IMG/VR virus record: IMGVR_UViG_2711768034_000012
Direction: 5' to 3' (one strand)
Length of the DNA stretch: 9,302 nt
Source of the DNA: a virus
Lineage: Duplodnaviria; Heunggongvirae; Uroviricota; Caudoviricetes
Below, in pieces: positions 1 through 6,138 of this stretch (the stretch's first letter is position 1; each line of letters opens with the position of its first letter). A model generated the notes under the pieces. It did no database searches. It was not told where the DNA came from and worked only from the letters and a program-made list of their open reading frames with translations. Made by a program: the position numbers and the translations under genes.

Positions 1-267
1 TGTTCAGCAGATTATCAGGCGCAACTGAAGCGGCATAATCTGCGTGGAAGTATGAGCGCAAAAGGTTGCTGCTACGATAATGCCTGCGTGGAAAGCTTCT
101 TTCATTCGCTGAAAGTGGAATGTATCCATGGAGAACACTTTATCAGCCGGGAAATAATGCGGGCAACGGTGTTTAATTATATCGAATGTGATTACAATCG
201 GTGGCGGCGGCACAGTTGGTGTGGCGGCCTCAGTCCGGAACAATTTGAAAACAAGAACCTCGCTTAG
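1..267 (+). CDS. insF: IS3 transposase OrfB (InsF, DDE integrase-type), C-terminal fragment; N-terminus lies outside the window
   Basis: Open frame from window base 1 to the TAG at 265-267. The ORF-track protein 52..267 is the tail of the same frame. Confidence 0.88.
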
Positions 268-297
268 GCCTGTGTCCATATTACGTGGGTAGGATCA
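259..297. repeat. IS3 right terminal inverted repeat (about 39 bp)
   Basis: Terminal sequence after the transposase stop; identified from the recalled IS3 end sequence. The partner repeat is outside the window. Confidence 0.65.
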
Positions 298-386
298 ATC
301 CCCGGTTCAAAGCTCTGCTGAACAATTGCGATCTTTTCCTGTGTGGTACGCCGTCTGCGTTTCTCCGGCCCTAAGACATCAATCAT
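298..386 (-). pseudogene. insC: IS2 OrfA (InsC) 5' fragment, interrupted after about 29 codons by IS3
   Basis: Minus-strand ATG at 386-384 translates as [29 protein letters not shown], then runs into the IS3 end at 297/298. Confidence 0.8.
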
Positions 387-477
387 CTGTTCTCCAATGA
401 CTAGTCTAAAAACTAGTATTAAGACTATCACTTATTTAAGTGATATTGGTTGTCTGGAGATTCAGGGGGCCAGTCTA
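298..477 (-). mobile_element. IS2 left end (IRL plus the start of orfA/insC) in inverted orientation, truncated by the IS3 insertion
   Basis: The reverse complement of 298-477 reads TAGACTGGCCCCCTGAATCTCCAGACAACCAATATCACTTAAATAAGTGATAGTCTTAATACTAGTTTTTAGACTAGTCATTGGAGAACAGATGATTGATGTCTTAGGGCCGGAGAAACGCAGACGGCGTACCACACAGGAAAAGATCGCAATTGTTCAGCAGAGCTTTGAACCGGGGAT, which is the IS2 left end as I recall it. Confidence 0.85.
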
Positions 478-1387: not shown

Positions 1388-1426
1388 ATTGCAGCAAGGT
1401 GGTTATAATTGAAAGAATATTTAGAT

Positions 1427-2884
1427 ATGAATACATCTCATGTAAGAGTTGTTACTCATATGTGTGGGTTTCTGGTTTGGCTCTATAGTCTTTCAATGTT
1501 GCCACCAATGGTTGTAGCATTGTTTTATAAAGAAAAAAGCCTGTTCGTTTTCTTTATAACTTTCGTTATGTTTTTTTGCATTGGTGGCGGAGCGTGGTAT
1601 ACAACTAAGAAATCTGGCATTCAATTACGTACCCGTGATGGGTTTATTATAATTGTAATGTTTTGGATTTTGTTTTCTGTTATTAGTGCATTCCCTTTAT
1701 GGATTGACTCAGAACTTAATTTAACGTTCATTGATGCTCTGTTTGAAGGGGTTTCTGGAATAACAACAACAGGAGCAACTGTAATTGATGATGTTAGTTC
1801 ATTACCTCGGGCATATTTGTACTATCGGTCACAGTTAAATTTTATAGGTGGTTTAGGAGTTATTGTTCTGGCGGTTGCTGTATTGCCATTATTGGGTATT
1901 GGTGGTGCAAAGCTTTATCAGTCAGAAATGCCGGGGCCATTTAAGGATGACAAACTCACTCCCCGCCTGGCCGATACGTCACGGACACTGTGGATAACTT
2001 ATTCTTTATTAGGTATTGCTTGTATTGTCTGTTATAGACTTGCAGGAATGCCTTTGTTTGATGCTATTTGTCACGGGATTTCCACAGTTTCGCTTGGTGG
2101 TTTCTCAACTCATAGCGAGAGTATCGGATATTTTAATAACTATTTGGTTGAGCTGGTGGCTGGTTCTTTTTCCCTGCTATCGGCTTTCAACTTCACTCTT
2201 TGGTATATTGTTATTAGCAGGAAAACGATAAAACCTTTAATCAGAGATATTGAACTTCGTTTCTTTCTGTTAATAGCCTTAGGGGTGATCATTGTTACCT
2301 CTTTCCAGGTCTGGCATATAGGTATGTATGACTTGCATGGAAGTTTTATTCATTCGTTTTTTCTTGCCAGCTCCATGCTCACTGATAATGGTTTAGCTAC
2401 GCAGGATTATGCAAACTGGCCCACGCACACGATAGTGTTTTTGCTGTCGTCAAGTTTCTTTGGGGGATGTATAGGTTCAACTTGTGGTGGAATTAAGTCA
2501 CTTCGATTTCTTATACTTTTCAAACAAAGCAAACACGAGATAAATCAGCTTTCTCATCCCAGAGCGTTGTTGAGTGTAAATGTAGGAGGGAAGATAGTTA
2601 CAGATCGTGTAATGAGGTCTGTATGGAGTTTCTTTTTTCTTTATACTCTCTTCACGGTGTTTTTTATACTGGTGTTAAATGGTATGGGATATGATTTTCT
2701 TACATCATTTGCAACAGTGGCTGCATGTATTAATAATATGGGATTAGGTTTTGGGGCTACTGCATCGTCATTCGGAGTGCTTAATGACATTGCAAAATAT
2801 TTAATGTGCATAGCTATGATTCTTGGTCGCCTTGAAATTTATCCTGTTATTATATTGTTTTCAGGTTTTTTTTGGCGCTCCTAA
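1427..2884 (+). CDS. trkG: TrkG, Trk-system K+ uptake membrane protein (TrkH/TrkG family)
   Basis: 485 aa from ATG 1427 (MNTSHVRVVTHMCGF...), polytopic and hydrophobic, with the GxG-type selectivity-filter-like repeats typical of TrkH/TrkG. Strongly AT-rich coding sequence. The ORF track starts at an in-frame TTG at 1409, which sits 6 nt after an AGGTGG Shine-Dalgarno-like sequence, so the start is ambiguous. Confidence 0.9.
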   Translation: MNTSHVRVVTHMCGFLVWLYSLSMLPPMVVALFYKEKSLFVFFITFVMFFCIGGGAWYTTKKSGIQLRTRDGFIIIVMFWILFSVISAFPLWIDSELNLTFIDALFEGVSGITTTGATVIDDVSSLPRAYLYYRSQLNFIGGLGVIVLAVAVLPLLGIGGAKLYQSEMPGPFKDDKLTPRLADTSRTLWITYSLLGIACIVCYRLAGMPLFDAICHGISTVSLGGFSTHSESIGYFNNYLVELVAGSFSLLSAFNFTLWYIVISRKTIKPLIRDIELRFFLLIALGVIIVTSFQVWHIGMYDLHGSFIHSFFLASSMLTDNGLATQDYANWPTHTIVFLLSSSFFGGCIGSTCGGIKSLRFLILFKQSKHEINQLSHPRALLSVNVGGKIVTDRVMRSVWSFFFLYTLFTVFFILVLNGMGYDFLTSFATVAACINNMGLGFGATASSFGVLNDIAKYLMCIAMILGRLEIYPVIILFSGFFWRS

Positions 2885-2968
2885 TATATGGCTGATTTAT
2901 AATTGTGAGTTTAATATTATATTGACTCACTCATTGATCCAATACCTAACTTTACCAGCAACACCTCC

Positions 2969-3005
2969 GCCCCCAGTAGCACTGGCTGCTGGGGTGCGTT
3001 TTATT
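2969..3005 (+). terminator. Candidate intrinsic terminator downstream of trkG
   Basis: Hairpin CCCCAGTAGC/GCTGCTGGGG (one mismatch) with a 4-nt loop, followed by TGCGTTTTATT. Confidence 0.35.
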
Positions 3006-3021: not shown

Positions 3022-3810
3022 ATGAGCGAGAAATTAAAGATAGTCTATCGCCCATTACAAGAATTGTCACCGTATGCGCACAACGCCAGGACGCACAGTA
3101 CTGAGCAGGTGGCACAACTGGTAGAAAGTATTAAGCAATTCGGCTGGACTAATCCGGTGCTGATTGACGAAAAGGGCGAAATTATTGCGGGTCACGGTCG
3201 TGTTATGGCGGCTGAAATGCTCAAAATGGATTCTGTTCCGGTCATTGTTCTGTCTGGCCTGACGGATGAGCAGAAAAAGGCGTACCGCCTGGCAGATAAT
3301 CGCCTACCGATGAATGCTGGCTGGGATGAAGATCTGTTGCGGATGGAGCTGTCGGACCTAATCAATGCTGATTTTGATGTCTCCCTGACAGGCTTCGGCC
3401 CGACAGAAATTGATGAACTGTTGACGGATGTTTTGCCCGGTACAGGAAATAAGGAGGAGCCGTATACGACGAAAATTGATACGCCTGTTTATGAGCCGTC
3501 GGGCGGTAAACCGGATATCAGTGAACTGTATGACGATACGAAAACTCAGGAGCTGATCAGCCGGATACGTTCGGCGTCCCTTGATCCTGATATTGAGAAA
3601 TTCCTCCTGTGTGCGGCAGAACGTCACACGGTGTTTAATTTCAGCAGAATTGCGGACTATTACGCTCATGCCCCCGCTGAAATTCAGTGCCTTTTCGAGG
3701 AGTCGGCGCTGGTGATCATTGATTATCAGCAGGCTATTGAAAATGGATTTGTCCGAATGACGCAGCGCATGGTGGCGATCATGCATAGCGGGGAGGAGGA
3801 ATATGCGTGA
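3022..3810 (+). CDS. ParB N-terminal domain (ParB/Srx fold) protein, YnaK-like, with no fused enzymatic domain
   Basis: 262 aa. The N-terminus (KIVYRPLQELSPYAHNARTHSTEQVAQLVESIKQFGWTNPVLIDEKGEIIAGHGRVMAAEMLKMDSVPVIVL...YRLADNRL) has the ParB N-terminal domain signature including a GHGR-type motif. It is followed by DFDVSLTGFGPTEIDELL, as seen after ParB domains in phage ParB-methyltransferase fusions. SD AAGG precedes ATG 3022. Confidence 0.72.
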   Translation: MSEKLKIVYRPLQELSPYAHNARTHSTEQVAQLVESIKQFGWTNPVLIDEKGEIIAGHGRVMAAEMLKMDSVPVIVLSGLTDEQKKAYRLADNRLPMNAGWDEDLLRMELSDLINADFDVSLTGFGPTEIDELLTDVLPGTGNKEEPYTTKIDTPVYEPSGGKPDISELYDDTKTQELISRIRSASLDPDIEKFLLCAAERHTVFNFSRIADYYAHAPAEIQCLFEESALVIIDYQQAIENGFVRMTQRMVAIMHSGEEEYA

Positions 3811-4735
3811 TGATTTTTGCGCCTTTATTCTGACTCACGGGCGACCGGACAAAGTTCTGACTTACCGGACGTGGCGTCGTGCTGGCTATACCGGGAAAAT
3901 TTTTATCGTTGTTGATGATGAAGATAAGACACGGCATCAGTACATGGCTGAATTTGGTGAACAGGTGCTGGTATTTTCCAAAGCCGATATTGCCAGTCGT
4001 TTTGACGAAGCCGATAATTTTGGTGACCACCGCTCAATTTTTTACGCCCGTAATGCCTGTTTCGACCTGGCAAAACTGGTCGGGTGTAAATACTTCATTC
4101 AGCTCGATGATGATTATCACGAGTTCCAGTTTCGGGTGGATCGCAACTATGACCAGGCCTATTTCCCGATAAGGAAACTGGATGCGATCCTTTCTGAAAT
4201 GCTGGCGTATTACGAATCAATACCCGCGCTTTCCATCGCTATGTCGCAGGGCGGGGATTTTCTTGGTGACAATGGCGGCCATGCTTCGTGGGTGAAACGC
4301 AAGGCAATGAACAGCTTTATCTGTTCGGTTGATCGACCGTTCTCATTCATGGGGCGCATTAACGAGGATGTGAATACGTACACGAATCTCGGTCGCCGTG
4401 GTGAATTGTTTATGACGATCGGTGCTGTCCAGTTAGGGCAGAAACAGACGCAGAAAAACAGCGGCGGAATGACCGAGCTGTATCTGGATTCCGGGACCTA
4501 CGTTAAAAGTTTTTATTCCGTCATGTATGCGCCGTCGTGCGTAAAAATCTCACTGATGGGCGCCAGCCATAAACGCATTCACCATCAGGTCACCTGGAAC
4601 AACGCTGCAGTAAAAATCCTTCACGAAAAATACAGGAAGAAGACACCCTGCATATTAATGGGGGTGACAAATGATTCCGTATTCGAAAGTCGAGTCTCTG
4701 GCAGCGTGCCGGATGACTGCACAACAAATCGCTGA
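3803..4735 (+). CDS. Soluble GT-A-fold-like (GT2-like) glycosyltransferase-family protein, hypothetical
   Basis: 310 aa. ATG 3803 overlaps the upstream stop (ATGCGTGA) and is preceded by the strong SD GGGAGGAGGA at 3791-3800. Motif order CAFILTHGRPDKV ... IFIVVDDED ... ARNACFDLAKLVGCKYFIQLDDDY parallels GT-A enzymes (PTYN-like first strand, DD after strand 2, ARN...DxD). No transmembrane segment is evident. Confidence 0.55.
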   Translation: MRDDFCAFILTHGRPDKVLTYRTWRRAGYTGKIFIVVDDEDKTRHQYMAEFGEQVLVFSKADIASRFDEADNFGDHRSIFYARNACFDLAKLVGCKYFIQLDDDYHEFQFRVDRNYDQAYFPIRKLDAILSEMLAYYESIPALSIAMSQGGDFLGDNGGHASWVKRKAMNSFICSVDRPFSFMGRINEDVNTYTNLGRRGELFMTIGAVQLGQKQTQKNSGGMTELYLDSGTYVKSFYSVMYAPSCVKISLMGASHKRIHHQVTWNNAAVKILHEKYRKKTPCILMGVTNDSVFESRVSGSVPDDCTTNR

Positions 4736-4922
4736 CGTTCTGGATGTTGATCTGAACCGACTGAAAGAAAATCGGGAAGCAATGACAAATTTTTACGCGT
4801 CCATCCGTAAGGGCAGAGCGAAAGGTGAAGCCGAGCTACGGGCGGCATTGTTTAAGCTTGCCAGAAAAGGGGATGCCTTTGCCCTGCGCGAACTACTCAG
4901 GGTGGATAAAAATCAGGACTAA
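4671..4922 (+). CDS. Small hypothetical protein (83 aa), possibly a DNA-binding or packaging accessory protein
   Basis: ATG 4671 preceded by a GGGGGTGA SD-like sequence. Overlaps the 3' end of the glycosyltransferase-like gene by 65 nt. Same frame as the downstream terminase-like ORF, separated by TAA plus one codon. Confidence 0.4.
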   Translation: MIPYSKVESLAACRMTAQQIADVLDVDLNRLKENREAMTNFYASIRKGRAKGEAELRAALFKLARKGDAFALRELLRVDKNQD

Positions 4923-4925
4923 CTG

Positions 4926-5552
4926 ATGAGCAGACCGGACTGGGGGGCGTTGCAGCAGGAGTATATTGCTGAATACACCCGCTCCGGTATATCTCCGGTG
5001 GCATGGTGTGAAGCAAGGGGACTGAATTACGCAACAGCCCGTCGTTACATCAAAAAACCTCCGAAAAATGCGCAGACAGAAATGCGCAAAACTGCGCAAA
5101 AAAGTGCGCAGAAAAAATCTGCGCAGACTGCACAAAAGCGGAACGGAAAATCTCAGGAAAAAAAGCCAGTATCCGATGCGTACCTGAATGAGGGCGATGC
5201 GGAAGAAATTTCGTTCTGTCCCGATGAATTCGGCGTTTCTGACCAGCAGGCGAAATTCGCAATGCTGGTTGCCCAGGGGAAAAAACTCGTTGAGGCATAT
5301 CGCCTGGCAGGATACGAGTCAGAGGGGAATGCGGCCTACGTAACCGCCAGCCAGCTCCTAAGAAATCCTAAGGTTTTTCGTGCTATCAGCTACTTCCGCA
5401 ATCAGTACCAGAAACGCTATACCGCAGACCTGGATTTACTGGTGAGTCAGTTGATGGCCATTGTCCAGGCCGACCCCAATCAGTTGGCACAATTTCGCCG
5501 TGTTAACTGCCGTTATTGCTGGGGCGAGAATCATCACTACCGCAGCAGATGA
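4926..5552 (+). CDS. Terminase small subunit-like protein (Terminase_2-type DNA-binding region), possibly C-terminally truncated
   Basis: 208 aa. N-terminal HTH-like segment (ISPVAWCEARGLNYATARRYIKK), a K/Q/A-rich low-complexity linker, then QQAKFAMLVAQGKKLVEAYRLAGYESEGNAAYVTASQLLRNPKVFRAI, which resembles the conserved DNA-binding motif of phage small terminases. Ends abruptly (RVNCRYCWGENHHYRSR*) with no large terminase gene following. Confidence 0.55.
   Translation: MSRPDWGALQQEYIAEYTRSGISPVAWCEARGLNYATARRYIKKPPKNAQTEMRKTAQKSAQKKSAQTAQKRNGKSQEKKPVSDAYLNEGDAEEISFCPDEFGVSDQQAKFAMLVAQGKKLVEAYRLAGYESEGNAAYVTASQLLRNPKVFRAISYFRNQYQKRYTADLDLLVSQLMAIVQADPNQLAQFRRVNCRYCWGENHHYRSR
5069..5133 (+). 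repeat. Array of five TGCGCA hexamers plus one degenerate TGCACA, spaced 8-15 bp, inside the terminase small-subunit-like gene
   Basis: TGCGCA at 5069, 5083, 5093, 5105 and 5120; TGCACA at 5128. Encodes the AQK/SAQ-rich linker. Confidence 0.6.
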
Positions 5553-5676
5553 AGCACCTACGATAACCAGAAAAAAAGCCTCCCCGGCTGCCGTGATCGC
5601 AAAAGCCAGTGCTGAGGCGATTAGTTGATTTTCCGTTATTCCTCCTGTGGTACTGCCCTACAGGGGGACGCATTGA

Positions 5677-6138
5677 ATGAGGTTATGGATGTTTATTCTT
5701 AATCAGAAAATTATCATTGGTGGAGAACGCTGGTTTACGCCAATGAAGGACTTAAAACCTGTAGACGGGTTAAAACTGTTGGTGGCAAGCAGCGATAACG
5801 ATCAGTATCGCTCCCGTAATGCATTAATCCGTCGCCACATTGAGAAAATGGATGCCAGTTTGCACGTCGGAACGAAGGAGTTTGATATTTCAAAGGTTTC
5901 CGAGGTGGATTCTGTTGATGATTTACTCATTGATAATGCCGCTCGTTATCTGCTGAAAGACTGGAAAGGGGTTGGTGAACTGGTTAATGGTGTTGAGGTT
6001 GCACTGGAATATACGGCAGAACGAGGGATCGCGCTGCTTAAGCAGAATCCAGAGTTGTACTGGCAGATCCTTGCAGAAGCAGCCAGCATCGCCCAGGGTA
6101 AAGAGCAGCAGAAGCAGGATACGATAAAAAAGCCATAG
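5677..6138 (+). CDS. Tail assembly chaperone (lambda gpG-like)
   Basis: 153 aa acidic protein. ATG 5677 is preceded by GGGGG at 5663-5667; an alternative in-frame ATG is at 5689. It directly precedes a -1-frame ORF and the tape-measure gene, the G/GT/H synteny of siphovirus tail modules. Confidence 0.6.
   Translation: MRLWMFILNQKIIIGGERWFTPMKDLKPVDGLKLLVASSDNDQYRSRNALIRRHIEKMDASLHVGTKEFDISKVSEVDSVDDLLIDNAARYLLKDWKGVGELVNGVEVALEYTAERGIALLKQNPELYWQILAEAASIAQGKEQQKQDTIKKP
6126..6132 (+). promoter_or_regulatory. Candidate -1 programmed ribosomal frameshift slippery heptamer A-AAA-AAG
   Basis: In-frame X-XXY-YYZ heptamer two codons before the chaperone stop (TAG 6136-6138). The -1 frame is open from here through 6446. 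Confidence 0.5.

What the first reader, a model, noticed from the sequence alone, without database searches (positions are those of the whole stretch)
3022..4922. Uncharacterised ParB-domain plus GT-A-like glycosyltransferase module in the lysis-to-packaging cargo slot
Two genes are translationally coupled: the stop of the first and the start of the second overlap (ATGCGTGA at 3803-3810) behind a strong SD (GGGAGGAGGA). The first encodes a standalone ParB N-terminal (ParB/Srx fold) domain with the DFD..LTGF..E.DELL linker that normally connects ParB domains to DNA methyltransferase domains in phage ParB-MTase fusions. Here no methyltransferase follows; the partner is a separate soluble protein whose motif order (hGRPDKV / IVVDDED / ARN...QLDDDY) looks like a GT-A nucleotide-sugar transferase. 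An 83-aa ORF overlaps the end. The pair sits between the lysis cassette and the terminase gene, a typical site for phage cargo and defence or anti-defence genes. The architecture (a ParB-like DNA-targeting module with an enzymatic effector in trans) suggests a DNA-directed modification system, possibly DNA glycosylation, or a defence module. I know of no characterised system with this composition; apparent K-12 Rac relatives (ynaK/ydaY) are, as far as I recall, fragmentary and unstudied.
Basis: partly seen in the sequence, partly recalled or inferred. Interest (0 to 1): 0.75.

Follow-up and report, generated by a model that had tools for sequence, protein, structure and literature searches.

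The report
Phage ParB-adaptor plus DNA-type glycosyltransferase pair
Two overlapping late genes of a Rac-like E. coli prophage encode a sugar-transferring enzyme of the family that decorates phage DNA and a dedicated partner protein with a ParB-type head; the pair occurs in thousands of bacterial and archaeal viruses that have no known way to make the modified base such enzymes normally need, so what it glycosylates is an open, testable question.

Summary
In detail: ynaK (3022-3810) and a 310-aa gene (3803-4735) overlap in ATGCGTGA behind GGGAGGAGGA, and all quoted motifs are present. The second protein is a GT-A glycosyltransferase of a named family, Pfam PF20691 TAGT (E 1e-34), which PGAP calls 'GREB1-related'. 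The first protein is not a bare ParB domain. It is ParB_N, a helical linker, a disordered invariant motif (YTxKIxxPxYEP) and an acidic helical C-domain with no Pfam family. That C-domain, not ParB_N, is the constant partner: 80 of 80 viral loci with this GT subfamily have it directly upstream, and in some phages it is a standalone ~135-aa protein. The pair reaches Lactobacillus, Vibrio, Nocardia and haloarchaeal viruses at 40-60% identity. In temperate phages it usually opens the packaging operon just before terS; in larger phages it sits among replication genes. No TET/JBP or thymidylate-synthase-type enzyme was found nearby, nor in a complete 38-kb phage genome. The pair is backbone rather than cargo; trkG is the cargo here. 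K-12 ydaY is a tail-chaperone fragment, not this GT. Best reading: a late, ParB-assisted nucleic-acid glycosylation module with an unknown acceptor. I found no experimental study of it.

The parts
3022..3810 (+). ynaK, full-length 262-aa form: ParB_N, linker, invariant motif and YnaK-C domain
   Evidence: ORF. Pfam ParB_N E 9e-7 and phrog_620 E 3e-90 over residues 1-250. AF2 model pLDDT 77. PGAP names it ynaK.
3022..3321 (+). ParB/Srx N-terminal NTP-binding-type domain (aa 1-100), with box II as GHGR (aa 57-60)
   Evidence: Foldseek hits to Noc, ParB, PadC, KorB, Srx and SerK with probability ~1. The alignment to T. thermophilus Spo0J puts R23, R60 and N93 at the phosphate-binding positions, while the box I Gln and box II Glu are replaced by N21 and H58.
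3322..3429 (+). Acidic helical linker (aa 101-136) with DFD..LTGF..E.DELL, shared with phage ParB-methylase fusions
   Evidence: PADLOC MTase_II N-terminus E 1e-38 and phrog_498 DNA methyltransferase E 4e-51. tblastn gives 40-55% identity to the N-termini of annotated phage DNA methylases. Helices 103-134 in the model.
3463..3498 (+). Invariant short motif YTxKIxxPxYEP (aa 148-159) in a predicted disordered stretch
   Evidence: Invariant columns Y148, K151, P155, Y157, E158 and P159 across 28 sequences, including standalone partners. pLDDT is below 50 for residues 137-155.
3517..3771 (+). YnaK-C: acidic helical domain (aa ~166-250), the conserved partner of the GT, with no Pfam family
   Evidence: pLDDT 84-94 with 5-6 helices. 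More than 400 standalone 130-140-aa homologues have no Pfam domain. The family has 1388 clusters at 50% identity and the domain is always C-terminal. No significant PDB sequence match; the best hits, at E 0.006-0.011, are designed armadillo-repeat proteins with no stretch passing on its own. Only a sub-threshold Pfam match to PF23887. pI 4.6.
3790..3810 (+). Translational coupling signal: SD GGGAGGAGGA (3790-3799) and overlapping ATGCGTGA (3803-3810)
   Evidence: Sequence. Overlap of partner stop and GT start recurs across phages.
3803..4735 (+). TAGT-family GT-A glycosyltransferase (310 aa; PGAP 'GREB1-related protein')
   Evidence: Pfam PF20691 E 1.2e-34 over aa 8-222 and phrog_842 E 8e-102. 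The Foldseek top 50 PDB hits are all nucleotide-sugar enzymes, predominantly GT-A glycosyltransferases, with a few ADP-glucose pyrophosphorylase chains. Invariant R14, D102-D104 and E188-D189..Y193. More than 8000 homologue clusters.
4106..4114 (+). DxD metal/NDP-sugar motif (GAT GAT GAT = D102-D104)
   Evidence: Sequence. Invariant in 15 diverse homologues.
4469..4657 (+). Subfamily-specific C-terminal region of the GT (aa 223-285) beyond the Pfam TAGT model, carrying invariant T224, L226, Y227, G231-T232-Y233, K235, F237-Y238, M241, P244, R258, H260-H261 and W265; the invariant G221-G222-M223 that begins the GGMTxLY motif lies just upstream, at the end of the Pfam-covered region
   Evidence: The Pfam match ends at aa 222. 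Invariant columns. This part of the AF2 model has low confidence.
4658..4735 (+). E. coli-lineage C-terminal extension of the GT that overlaps the next gene
   Evidence: Homologues elsewhere end at about 285-290 aa. In other enterobacterial loci the GT ends before the orf83 homologue begins.
4671..4922 (+). 83-aa conserved neighbour (small-terminase-like piece). It belongs to the packaging module, not to the pair
   Evidence: phrog_309 terminase small subunit E 2.5e-22. Present between GT and terS in 21 enterobacterial loci and absent from the other phages.
2971..2994 (+). Strong intrinsic-terminator-like hairpin ending the trkG moron, 28 nt upstream of ynaK
   Evidence: 10-bp stem with 7 GC pairs, followed by a T-run. 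trkG GC is 34-39% against 49% for ynaK-GT.

Best explanation
The locus is a two-protein nucleic-acid glycosylation module belonging to the phage late (packaging) operon. Shown: the 310-aa protein is a soluble, basic GT-A enzyme of the TAGT family with the family's R...DDD...ED..Y active-site residues. It is made in fixed proportion with YnaK through translational coupling. Also shown: YnaK is modular. It has a ParB_N head that keeps the phosphate-binding residues but not the hydrolysis residues, a linker shared with phage DNA methylases, a disordered invariant peptide, and an acidic helical C-domain that always accompanies this GT subfamily. Inferred: YnaK-C and its peptide bind and activate or position the GT. 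The ParB_N head, probably as an NTP-gated dimer, keeps the enzyme on double-stranded DNA. This is how ParB176 enables its cognate thymine dioxygenase on dsDNA and how the same N-module serves fused DNA methylases. The GT would then transfer a sugar from a common NDP-sugar onto replicated phage DNA shortly before or during packaging, shielding it from host nucleases or marking it. The acceptor is unknown. These phages have no hydroxymethyl-pyrimidine pathway, so it must be something present in ordinary DNA, or a non-DNA target (see rivals).
For: TAGT membership and GT-A fold. Active-site residues are invariant and match the R...DDD...EDY/F motif described for phage GT-A DNA glycosyltransferases and JGT. 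Characterised PF20691 members act on DNA, for example the T2/T6 beta-glucosyl-HMC-alpha-GT. Co-occurrence is strict, 80/80, with conserved gene overlap. The partner domain also occurs as a standalone protein and the family is large. The YnaK N-module is homologous to the N-termini of phage DNA methylases. ParB176 has the same architecture (NBD, short helices, unstructured linker, CTD) and activates a DNA dioxygenase on dsDNA. Context is always DNA packaging or replication genes. The GT is basic and the partner acidic. The pair has backbone GC content and no promoter of its own stands out. In L088 the pair heads a cluster with further GTs, a PIG-L deacetylase and a methyltransferase next to nucleotide-metabolism genes.
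Against: No 5mYOX/TET-JBP, thymidylate-synthase homologue or hydroxymethylase lies within +-10 kb in any locus inspected. None is present in the complete genome of phi jlb1 or in the 40 kb of the 55.7-kb partial record of the intact Rac-like phage that I inspected. Canonical DNA therefore offers no known hydroxyl acceptor. One TAGT relative, GREB1, glycosylates a protein. No DNA-binding domain was recognised in YnaK, and YnaK-C is acidic. The C-terminal half of the GT model is unreliable. There are no experimental data. [quoted passage not shown]
Confidence: 0.5

Rival explanations
1. The module glycosylates protein. The GT would modify a phage or host protein, possibly YnaK itself on the invariant Tyr or Thr of the YTxKIxxPxYEP peptide (glycogenin-like self-glycosylation), or a packaging or replication protein. 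YnaK-C would then be the substrate or an adaptor.
For: The TAGT relative GREB1 O-GlcNAcylates a protein. An invariant, disordered, Tyr-containing peptide sits in every partner. No DNA acceptor pathway is present. Glycogenin is among the structural neighbours, although that match is generic for GT-A enzymes.
Against: The partner's N-module is the one used by DNA methylases. Context is DNA metabolism in lytic phages as well as temperate ones. The family's phage and kinetoplastid members act on DNA. Conservation of 40-60% identity from E. coli phages to a haloarchaeal virus argues for a universal target rather than a lineage-specific protein, though self-modification would escape this argument.
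Confidence: 0.15
2. The module makes a site-limited DNA mark used for packaging or regulation rather than bulk protection. YnaK/GT would modify DNA near the pac/cos region to time or direct terminase action, analogous to methylation control of P1 pac cleavage (the P1 analogy is recalled from memory, not tested).
For: The position immediately upstream of terS is conserved across unrelated terminase types: Terminase_4/TerL, GpA and P22-like. Phage T-dioxygenases modify only part of the genome in sequence-specific fashion, and their authors discuss regulatory roles.
Against: Standalone YnaK-C plus GT pairs sit among replication genes far from terminase in 191-kb Vibrio phages and in L086 and L088. 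No parS-like repeat lies near ynaK. YnaK lacks a recognisable sequence-reading domain.
Confidence: 0.12
3. The target is RNA or another hydroxyl-bearing molecule, such as an RNA 2'-OH, a tRNA base, a DNA end or a nucleotide second messenger. The module would then be an anti-defence or host-takeover enzyme rather than a DNA base modifier.
For: TAGT enzymes transfer to hydroxyl groups, and RNA is the universal hydroxyl-rich nucleic acid. ParB-CTPase folds are also fused to RNA-type domains such as PUA-like, ASCH and UPF0020. A class-I SAM methyltransferase of a non-DNA type lies beside the pair in L048, L070 and L088, and RNA ligase/PNKP lies nearby in L088.
Against: No member of the family is known to act on RNA. 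The closest relatives of the N-module are DNA methylases. There is no direct evidence.
Confidence: 0.1
4. The pair is a prophage-encoded defence or superinfection-exclusion module that glycosylates or otherwise disables incoming foreign DNA in the lysogen.
For: The authors of the 2023 GT survey raise the possibility for prophage GTs. Both genes stay intact in this otherwise decayed remnant and in 867 of 5426 E. coli genomes.
Against: No PADLOC model matches the GT or YnaK-C. There is no promoter of its own, and a terminator from trkG lies just upstream. The pair has backbone GC content. It occupies the late operon in temperate phages and is present in large lytic phages. K-12 lost it without known consequence.
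Confidence: 0.06

Closest known systems
Phage TAGT (PF20691) DNA glycosyltransferases: T2/T6 beta-glucosyl-HMC-alpha-glucosyltransferase and the GT-A enzymes of C5-MT/5mYOX pathways
   Same: Same Pfam family (120 bits), GT-A fold, R...DDD...ED..Y motifs, soluble, phage-encoded, post-replicative type.
   Different: Those enzymes act on 5hmC or on glucosyl-5hmC made by a dCMP hydroxymethylase or by MT plus TET. No such enzyme accompanies this subfamily. No T-even phage is hit at tblastn E 1e-10. This subfamily has an extra conserved ~65-aa C-terminal region and an obligate YnaK-C partner.
ParB-dependent phage thymine dioxygenases (5mYOX176 with ParB176; O'Toole et al. 2026, PMC13229309)
   Same: A ParB-like protein encoded next to a DNA-modifying enzyme. 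It lacks an HTH and is built as NBD, short helices, unstructured linker and C-terminal domain. Both ends are needed, it is specific to its cognate enzyme, and it enables action on dsDNA. YnaK has the same layout.
   Different: The enzyme partner there is a dioxygenase, not a GT. Homology between the two C-terminal domains could not be tested because the sequences are not held. Here ParB_N is dispensable in some lineages.
ParB_N-fused phage/prophage DNA N6/N4 methyltransferases
   Same: The N-terminal ParB_N domain plus DFD..LTGF..DELL linker is 40-55% identical, and the gene often occupies the same place at the start of the packaging region. Kaljevic et al. 2025 describe such fusions as enriched in prophages.
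   Different: In those proteins the catalytic domain is fused in cis and is a methylase. Here the fused domain is a non-catalytic acidic adaptor and the enzyme, a GT, is supplied in trans.
Kinetoplastid base-J glucosyltransferase (JGT) and human GREB1
   Same: Distant members or relatives of the TAGT clade with the same active-site motifs. PGAP's name 'GREB1-related protein' reflects this.
   Different: JGT needs JBP-made 5hmU, and GREB1 O-GlcNAcylates a protein. Neither has a YnaK-like partner, and sequence identity is very low (the preprint reports about 9% between phage GT-A enzymes and JGT).
Canonical ParABS partition ParB / Noc / KorB
   Same: N-terminal fold, with phosphate-binding Arg/Arg/Asn positions retained.
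   Different: No ParA, no parS-like repeats, no recognisable HTH or ParB C-terminal dimerisation domain, and hydrolysis residues replaced: box II is GHGR instead of GERR.

Membership tests
TAGT (Pfam PF20691, TET-associated glycosyltransferase) | Sequence match to the family profile above the curated threshold | tested here: met
   120.5 bits against a gathering score of 27.5, E 1.2e-34, profile positions 4-205 of 205. The precomputed PF20691 assignment is present on all listed homologues.
TAGT (Pfam PF20691, TET-associated glycosyltransferase) | GT-A fold with R...DDD...ED(Y/F) active-site motifs | tested here: met
   Foldseek top hits are all GT-A transferases. R14, D102-D104 and E188-D189..Y193 are invariant.
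TAGT (Pfam PF20691, TET-associated glycosyltransferase) | Genomic association with a TET/JBP (5mYOX) dioxygenase or another source of 5-hydroxymethyl-pyrimidine | tested here: not met
   No PF12851, thymidylate-synthase or hydroxymethylase gene within +-10 kb in L081-L088. None in the complete phi jlb1 genome or in the inspected part of the Rac-like phage. This feature gives the family its name but is a contextual trait, not a sequence criterion.
TAGT (Pfam PF20691, TET-associated glycosyltransferase) | Transfers a sugar to DNA (5hmC, 5hmU or a sugar already on DNA) | not testable with these tools
   This needs biochemistry or LC-MS. It is known for T2/T6 and metavirome enzymes only.
ParB/Srx superfamily (ParB_N, PF02195) | Profile match and fold of the N-terminal domain | tested here: met
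   29.3 bits against a cutoff of 26.3. Foldseek hits to Noc, ParB, PadC, KorB, Srx and SerK with probability ~1.
ParB/Srx superfamily (ParB_N, PF02195) | NTP-binding residues (box I Arg, box II GxxR Arg, box III Asn) | tested here: met
   R23, R60 and N93 align to the Spo0J positions. IAGHGR and ADN are invariant in 15 full-length homologues. The hydrolysis residues are replaced (Gln to N21, Glu to H58). Actual binding was not tested.
Canonical partition ParB (TIGR00180; ParABS) | HTH DNA-binding domain, C-terminal dimerisation domain, ParA partner and parS sites | tested here: not met
   TIGR00180 scores 38 bits against a cutoff of 58 and covers only the N-domain. The C-domain matches no HTH or ParB_C family. 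No ParA is present in any neighbourhood. No parS-like palindrome was found.
ParB_N-DNA methyltransferase fusions | A methyltransferase catalytic domain fused after the ParB_N-linker module | tested here: not met
   Only profile positions 13-148 of 436 of PADLOC MTase_II and 31-171 of 633 of phrog_498 are matched. No MTase domain is found in YnaK.
5mYOX-associated ParB activators (ParB176 type) | Layout of NBD, short helices, unstructured linker and CTD; encoded beside the DNA-modifying enzyme that it activates | tested here: inconclusive
   The layout matches and adjacency to a DNA-type enzyme is met. The partner, however, is a GT, sequence homology of the C-domains could not be checked, and activation is untested.
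Known anti-phage defence systems (PADLOC-DB v2) | Match of the component proteins to a defence-system model | tested here: not met
   The GT, orf83 and TerS give no hit. YnaK hits only the N-module of a type II methylase model.

The most novel reading that the evidence does not exclude
The YnaK-C/TAGT pair installs a sugar directly on canonical DNA, with no hydroxymethyl-pyrimidine precursor. The acceptor could be an exocyclic amine or another position of a standard base, or the backbone. Such a modification would be post-replicative, adaptor-dependent and previously unseen, and it would be shared by temperate and lytic tailed viruses of bacteria and haloarchaea, including common E. coli prophages.
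Probability: 0.25. Interest if true: 0.9.

Novelty: new variant of a known kind. Interest (0 to 1): 0.62.

Why it matters
Phage DNA glycosylation is known only downstream of 5-hydroxymethyl (or 5-hydroxy) pyrimidines. This pair is a very conserved member of the DNA-glycosyltransferase family that occurs without any such precursor pathway. The partner domain forms 1388 clusters at 50% identity, and the GT has more than 8000 clusters at 90% identity. It always comes with a dedicated, unannotated partner domain. A published survey set aside the roughly 65% of phage GT contigs that lack a 5mYOX or ThyS neighbour, and this pair may account for part of that fraction. If the target is DNA, the chemistry and the adaptor mechanism would both be new, and both bear on restriction evasion, sequencing artefacts and enzyme tools. 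If the target is protein or RNA, a 'DNA' enzyme family would gain a new substrate class. Either way the question can be tested directly in E. coli, because intact inducible Rac-like prophages carry the pair and K-12 is a natural null.

Tried and rejected
1. Canonical partition or plasmid-maintenance ParB. Rejected: there is no ParA, HTH or parS, and the protein scores below the TIGR00180 cutoff.

2. A hidden 5mYOX or ThyS among neighbouring unannotated ORFs. I scanned ten candidates with permissive Pfam thresholds. They turned out to be class-I SAM methyltransferases, DnaB, radical SAM/SPASM, an N6_N4 methylase and GT2; none was a dioxygenase.

3. Identifying YnaK-C. A profile search of PDB sequences gave no significant match; the best hits (E 0.006-0.011) were designed armadillo-repeat proteins in which no single stretch passes the threshold. 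Pfam gave only a sub-threshold PF23887 'Phage L5 gene 47-like' match in 16 of 26 members. Foldseek with the full-length model was dominated by the ParB_N domain, and I could not crop the model.

4. K-12 ydaY as the GT homologue. Rejected.

5. Seroconversion-type surface GT. Rejected on context: the protein is soluble, there are no Gtr-like partners, and the neighbours are DNA-metabolism genes.

6. Literature. I found no paper on ynaK function, and none on this pair. Iyer et al. 2013, which defined TAGT and noted ParB in modification clusters, is not held, so I cannot say whether it already drew the ParB-TAGT neighbourhood.

7. My greedy ORF caller lost the partner in 13 loci because it over-extended the GT start. 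The tblastn result (80/80) is the valid count.
Full report
WHAT IS THERE. The window is a decayed Rac-like prophage of E. coli. Window 478-5541 matches an intact Rac-like phage (ON470595) from the endolysin gene through the 5' part of terS. A ~9-kb deletion then joins terS to the tail-chaperone and tape-measure genes, and a second deletion ends the element near 8131. Within this frame, ORF 3022-3810 (262 aa, PGAP gene name ynaK) and ORF 3803-4735 (310 aa) overlap in ATGCGTGA behind GGGAGGAGGA.

THE ENZYME. The 310-aa protein matches Pfam PF20691, 'TET-associated glycosyltransferase' (TAGT), at E 1.2e-34 (120.5 bits against a cutoff of 27.5). It matches phrog_842 at E 8e-102. RefSeq sometimes names it 'GREB1-related protein'. 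An AlphaFold2 model is confident only for the N-terminal half. Its Foldseek hits in the PDB are nevertheless all nucleotide-sugar enzymes, predominantly GT-A glycosyltransferases such as SunS/ThuS, glycogenin, SpsA, ColGalT1 and LARGE1, with a few ADP-glucose pyrophosphorylase chains. R14, D102-D104 and E188-D189..Y193 are invariant in diverse homologues. These correspond to the R...DDD...EDY/F active-site pattern reported for phage GT-A DNA glycosyltransferases and the base-J glucosyltransferase. PF20691 includes the classical T2/T6 beta-glucosyl-HMC-alpha-glucosyltransferase. A distant relative, GREB1, glycosylates a protein. Residues 223-285 lie beyond the Pfam model and are strongly conserved in this subfamily. 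The last 25 residues are an E. coli-lineage extension that overlaps the next gene.

THE PARTNER. YnaK is not a bare ParB domain. Residues 1-100 have the ParB/Srx fold (Pfam ParB_N; Foldseek hits to Noc, ParB, PadC, KorB, Srx and SerK). In the alignment to Spo0J, the phosphate-binding positions are kept (R23, R60 of GHGR, N93). The box I Gln and box II Glu, which are used for CTP hydrolysis in partition ParBs, are replaced by N21 and H58. Residues 101-136 form the acidic helical DFD..LTGF..DELL linker. Next comes a predicted disordered stretch that carries an invariant motif, YTxKIxxPxYEP (aa 148-159). After it lies a confidently modelled helical domain (aa ~166-250, pLDDT 84-94). This 'YnaK-C' region has no Pfam family and no significant PDB sequence match; its only recurrent signal is a sub-threshold match to PF23887. 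It is acidic (pI 4.6; family median 5.3), whereas the GT is basic (pI 8.1-8.6).

CO-OCCURRENCE. All 80 IMG/VR loci returned for this GT subfamily (53-99% identity) encode a YnaK homologue directly upstream. In L039, L046 (two tandem copies), L048 and L070, in the 191-kb Vibrio phages, and in L086 and L088, the partner is a standalone protein of about 110-150 aa. It consists only of the motif plus YnaK-C, with no ParB_N. A word-indexed search found more than 400 such short proteins. An exhaustive profile search found 1388 clusters at 50% identity, with the domain always at the C-terminus. In the best 150, roughly two thirds carry an N-terminal extension of about 140 aa or more. Four of the six longest that I scanned matched ParB_N (two above Pfam's cutoff, two just below it), and none of four shorter ones did. 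The conserved core is therefore YnaK-C plus GT, and ParB_N is a frequent but optional head. Partner stop and GT start overlap in 65 of the 66 pairs I could call, and in independent gene calls. This argues for co-production and probably a complex, which is an inference.

DISTRIBUTION AND CONTEXT. The pair is found in 1580 of 5426 complete E. coli genomes, 867 of them full-length. It is also present in cultured phages of Lactobacillus (phi jlb1, c5, LL-Ku, Ld17, phiLdb), Vibrio and Nocardia, and in the haloarchaeal virus HHTV-2. In HHTV-2 both proteins are about 41-42% identical to the E. coli ones and the genes also overlap. In temperate phages with quite different terminases, the order is (HNH)...YnaK, GT, TerS, TerL, portal. 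In larger or lytic phages the pair lies among replication genes such as SSB, primase, helicase, DnaB and RusA. In those settings it is sometimes accompanied by a class-I SAM methyltransferase, a C5 DNA methylase, or further GTs and a PIG-L deacetylase. No TET/JBP dioxygenase, thymidylate-synthase homologue or hydroxymethylase was seen within +-10 kb of any inspected locus. The complete 38-kb genome of phi jlb1 has none; its unassigned ORFs there are too small to encode such an enzyme. In the window, the neighbouring trkG is a low-GC (34-39%) moron with a strong terminator at 2971-2994. The ynaK-GT pair has backbone GC content (49%) and no promoter that stands out. The pair is thus a conserved part of the phage late or DNA-handling gene set. 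It is not cargo and not a recognisable defence system.

K-12 ynaK is an 87-aa stump. K-12 ydaY is 100% identical to the tail-chaperone ORF at window 5677-6138 and unrelated to the GT. The K-12 deletion runs from window 3275 to 5787, so K-12 lacks the GT altogether. The 83-aa ORF is a conserved small-terminase-like gene of the packaging module, found only in the enterobacterial versions.

HOW IT MOST LIKELY WORKS. The following are shown: a TAGT-type GT with an intact active site, an obligate partner domain, coupling of the two genes, and DNA-metabolism context. The following are inferred. YnaK-C and its invariant peptide bind the basic GT. Where present, the ParB_N head keeps the enzyme on dsDNA, probably as an NTP-gated dimer. 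The closest experimental precedent is the ParB-dependent phage thymine dioxygenase. Its activator ParB176 has the same layout (NBD, short helices, unstructured linker, C-terminal domain) and lacks an HTH. It is specific to its cognate enzyme and is needed only on dsDNA. The same N-module serves fused DNA methylases. I therefore favour a late, post-replicative nucleic-acid glycosylation module whose product protects or marks phage DNA (confidence about 0.5). The weak point is the acceptor, because canonical DNA has no known hydroxyl for a TAGT enzyme. This leaves several rivals: protein glycosylation, including self-modification of the invariant Tyr/Thr peptide (0.15); a site-limited packaging or regulatory mark (0.12); RNA or another hydroxyl-bearing target (0.10); and prophage defence (0.06).

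NOVELTY. The enzyme family is known, and so is the idea that ParB-like proteins accompany DNA-modification enzymes. The idea was proposed computationally in 2013 according to and shown experimentally for dioxygenases in 2026. A 2023 survey listed ParB among GT neighbours and noted that about 65% of GT contigs lack a 5mYOX or ThyS neighbour, without following them up. I found no description of three things in the held literature: the strict YnaK-C/GT pairing, the recognition that the unannotated C-domain rather than ParB_N is the constant partner, and the absence of any precursor pathway. The 2013 paper itself could not be read. I rate the finding a new variant of a known kind, with a 0.25 chance that it hides a new DNA chemistry.

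Noticed in passing
window 5535-5541 and ~8128-8131: Two internal deletions define this prophage remnant. terS is cut at codon ~205 and joined to the region upstream of the tail-assembly chaperone, with about 9 kb of terL, portal and head genes lost. The tape-measure gene is cut at 8131 and joined to a 214-nt piece of the tail-tip region. K-12 Rac carries a different deletion (window 3275 to 5787).
   Followed up: yes
NZ_CP019280.1 locus L094 5001-5258 (= window 3022-3279): PGAP annotates the intact 262-aa ynaK as a 258-nt 'partial pseudogene missing C-terminus' and leaves the rest unannotated. The apparent cause is that the reference protein is the truncated 87-aa K-12 YnaK. This looks like a systematic annotation artefact that hides the YnaK-C domain in many E. 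coli genomes.
   Followed up: partly
window 1-477: The 3' end of an IS3-family transposase gene (ORF 52-267) abuts the endolysin gene. Homology to the intact phage starts only at 478, so the holin and the start of the endolysin are missing and the lysis cassette is defective.
   Followed up: partly
window 1409-2994: trkG is a low-GC (34-39%) insertion between Rz/Rz1 and ynaK with its own strong terminator (2971-2994). It is the true moron of this 'cargo slot'.
   Followed up: partly
window 5051-5127: A cluster of short direct repeats built on TGCGCAGA lies inside terS, in the stretch encoding the AQK-rich segment. It could be a pac-type terminase recognition site or merely repetitive coding sequence.
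   Followed up: no
L046 5607-8117: In one metagenomic phage the YnaK-C plus GT unit is tandemly duplicated (134 aa + 282 aa, then 134 aa + 276 aa). It is flanked by an N6_N4 DNA methylase, a DnaB-like helicase and a radical-SAM/SPASM enzyme.
   Followed up: partly
L048 4847-6903, L070 1926-3982, L088 8561-10629: A class-I SAM methyltransferase (Methyltransf_23/11/12-like, ~255-270 aa) lies between YnaK-C and the GT in L048; L070 carries the same 135-aa + 282-aa + 314-aa arrangement, though its middle ORF was not itself scanned. In L088 a weaker, sub-threshold match of the same kind lies directly upstream of the pair, and there the pair also heads a cluster with two GT-B enzymes, a PIG-L deacetylase, a further methyltransferase and a GT2.
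   Followed up: partly
window 8388-9302 (- strand): A 304-aa ORF with a signal-peptide-like N-terminus lies outside the prophage remnant and runs off the window edge. It looks like a periplasmic metal-binding (SitA/ZnuA-type) protein. I did not check it against any library.
   Followed up: no
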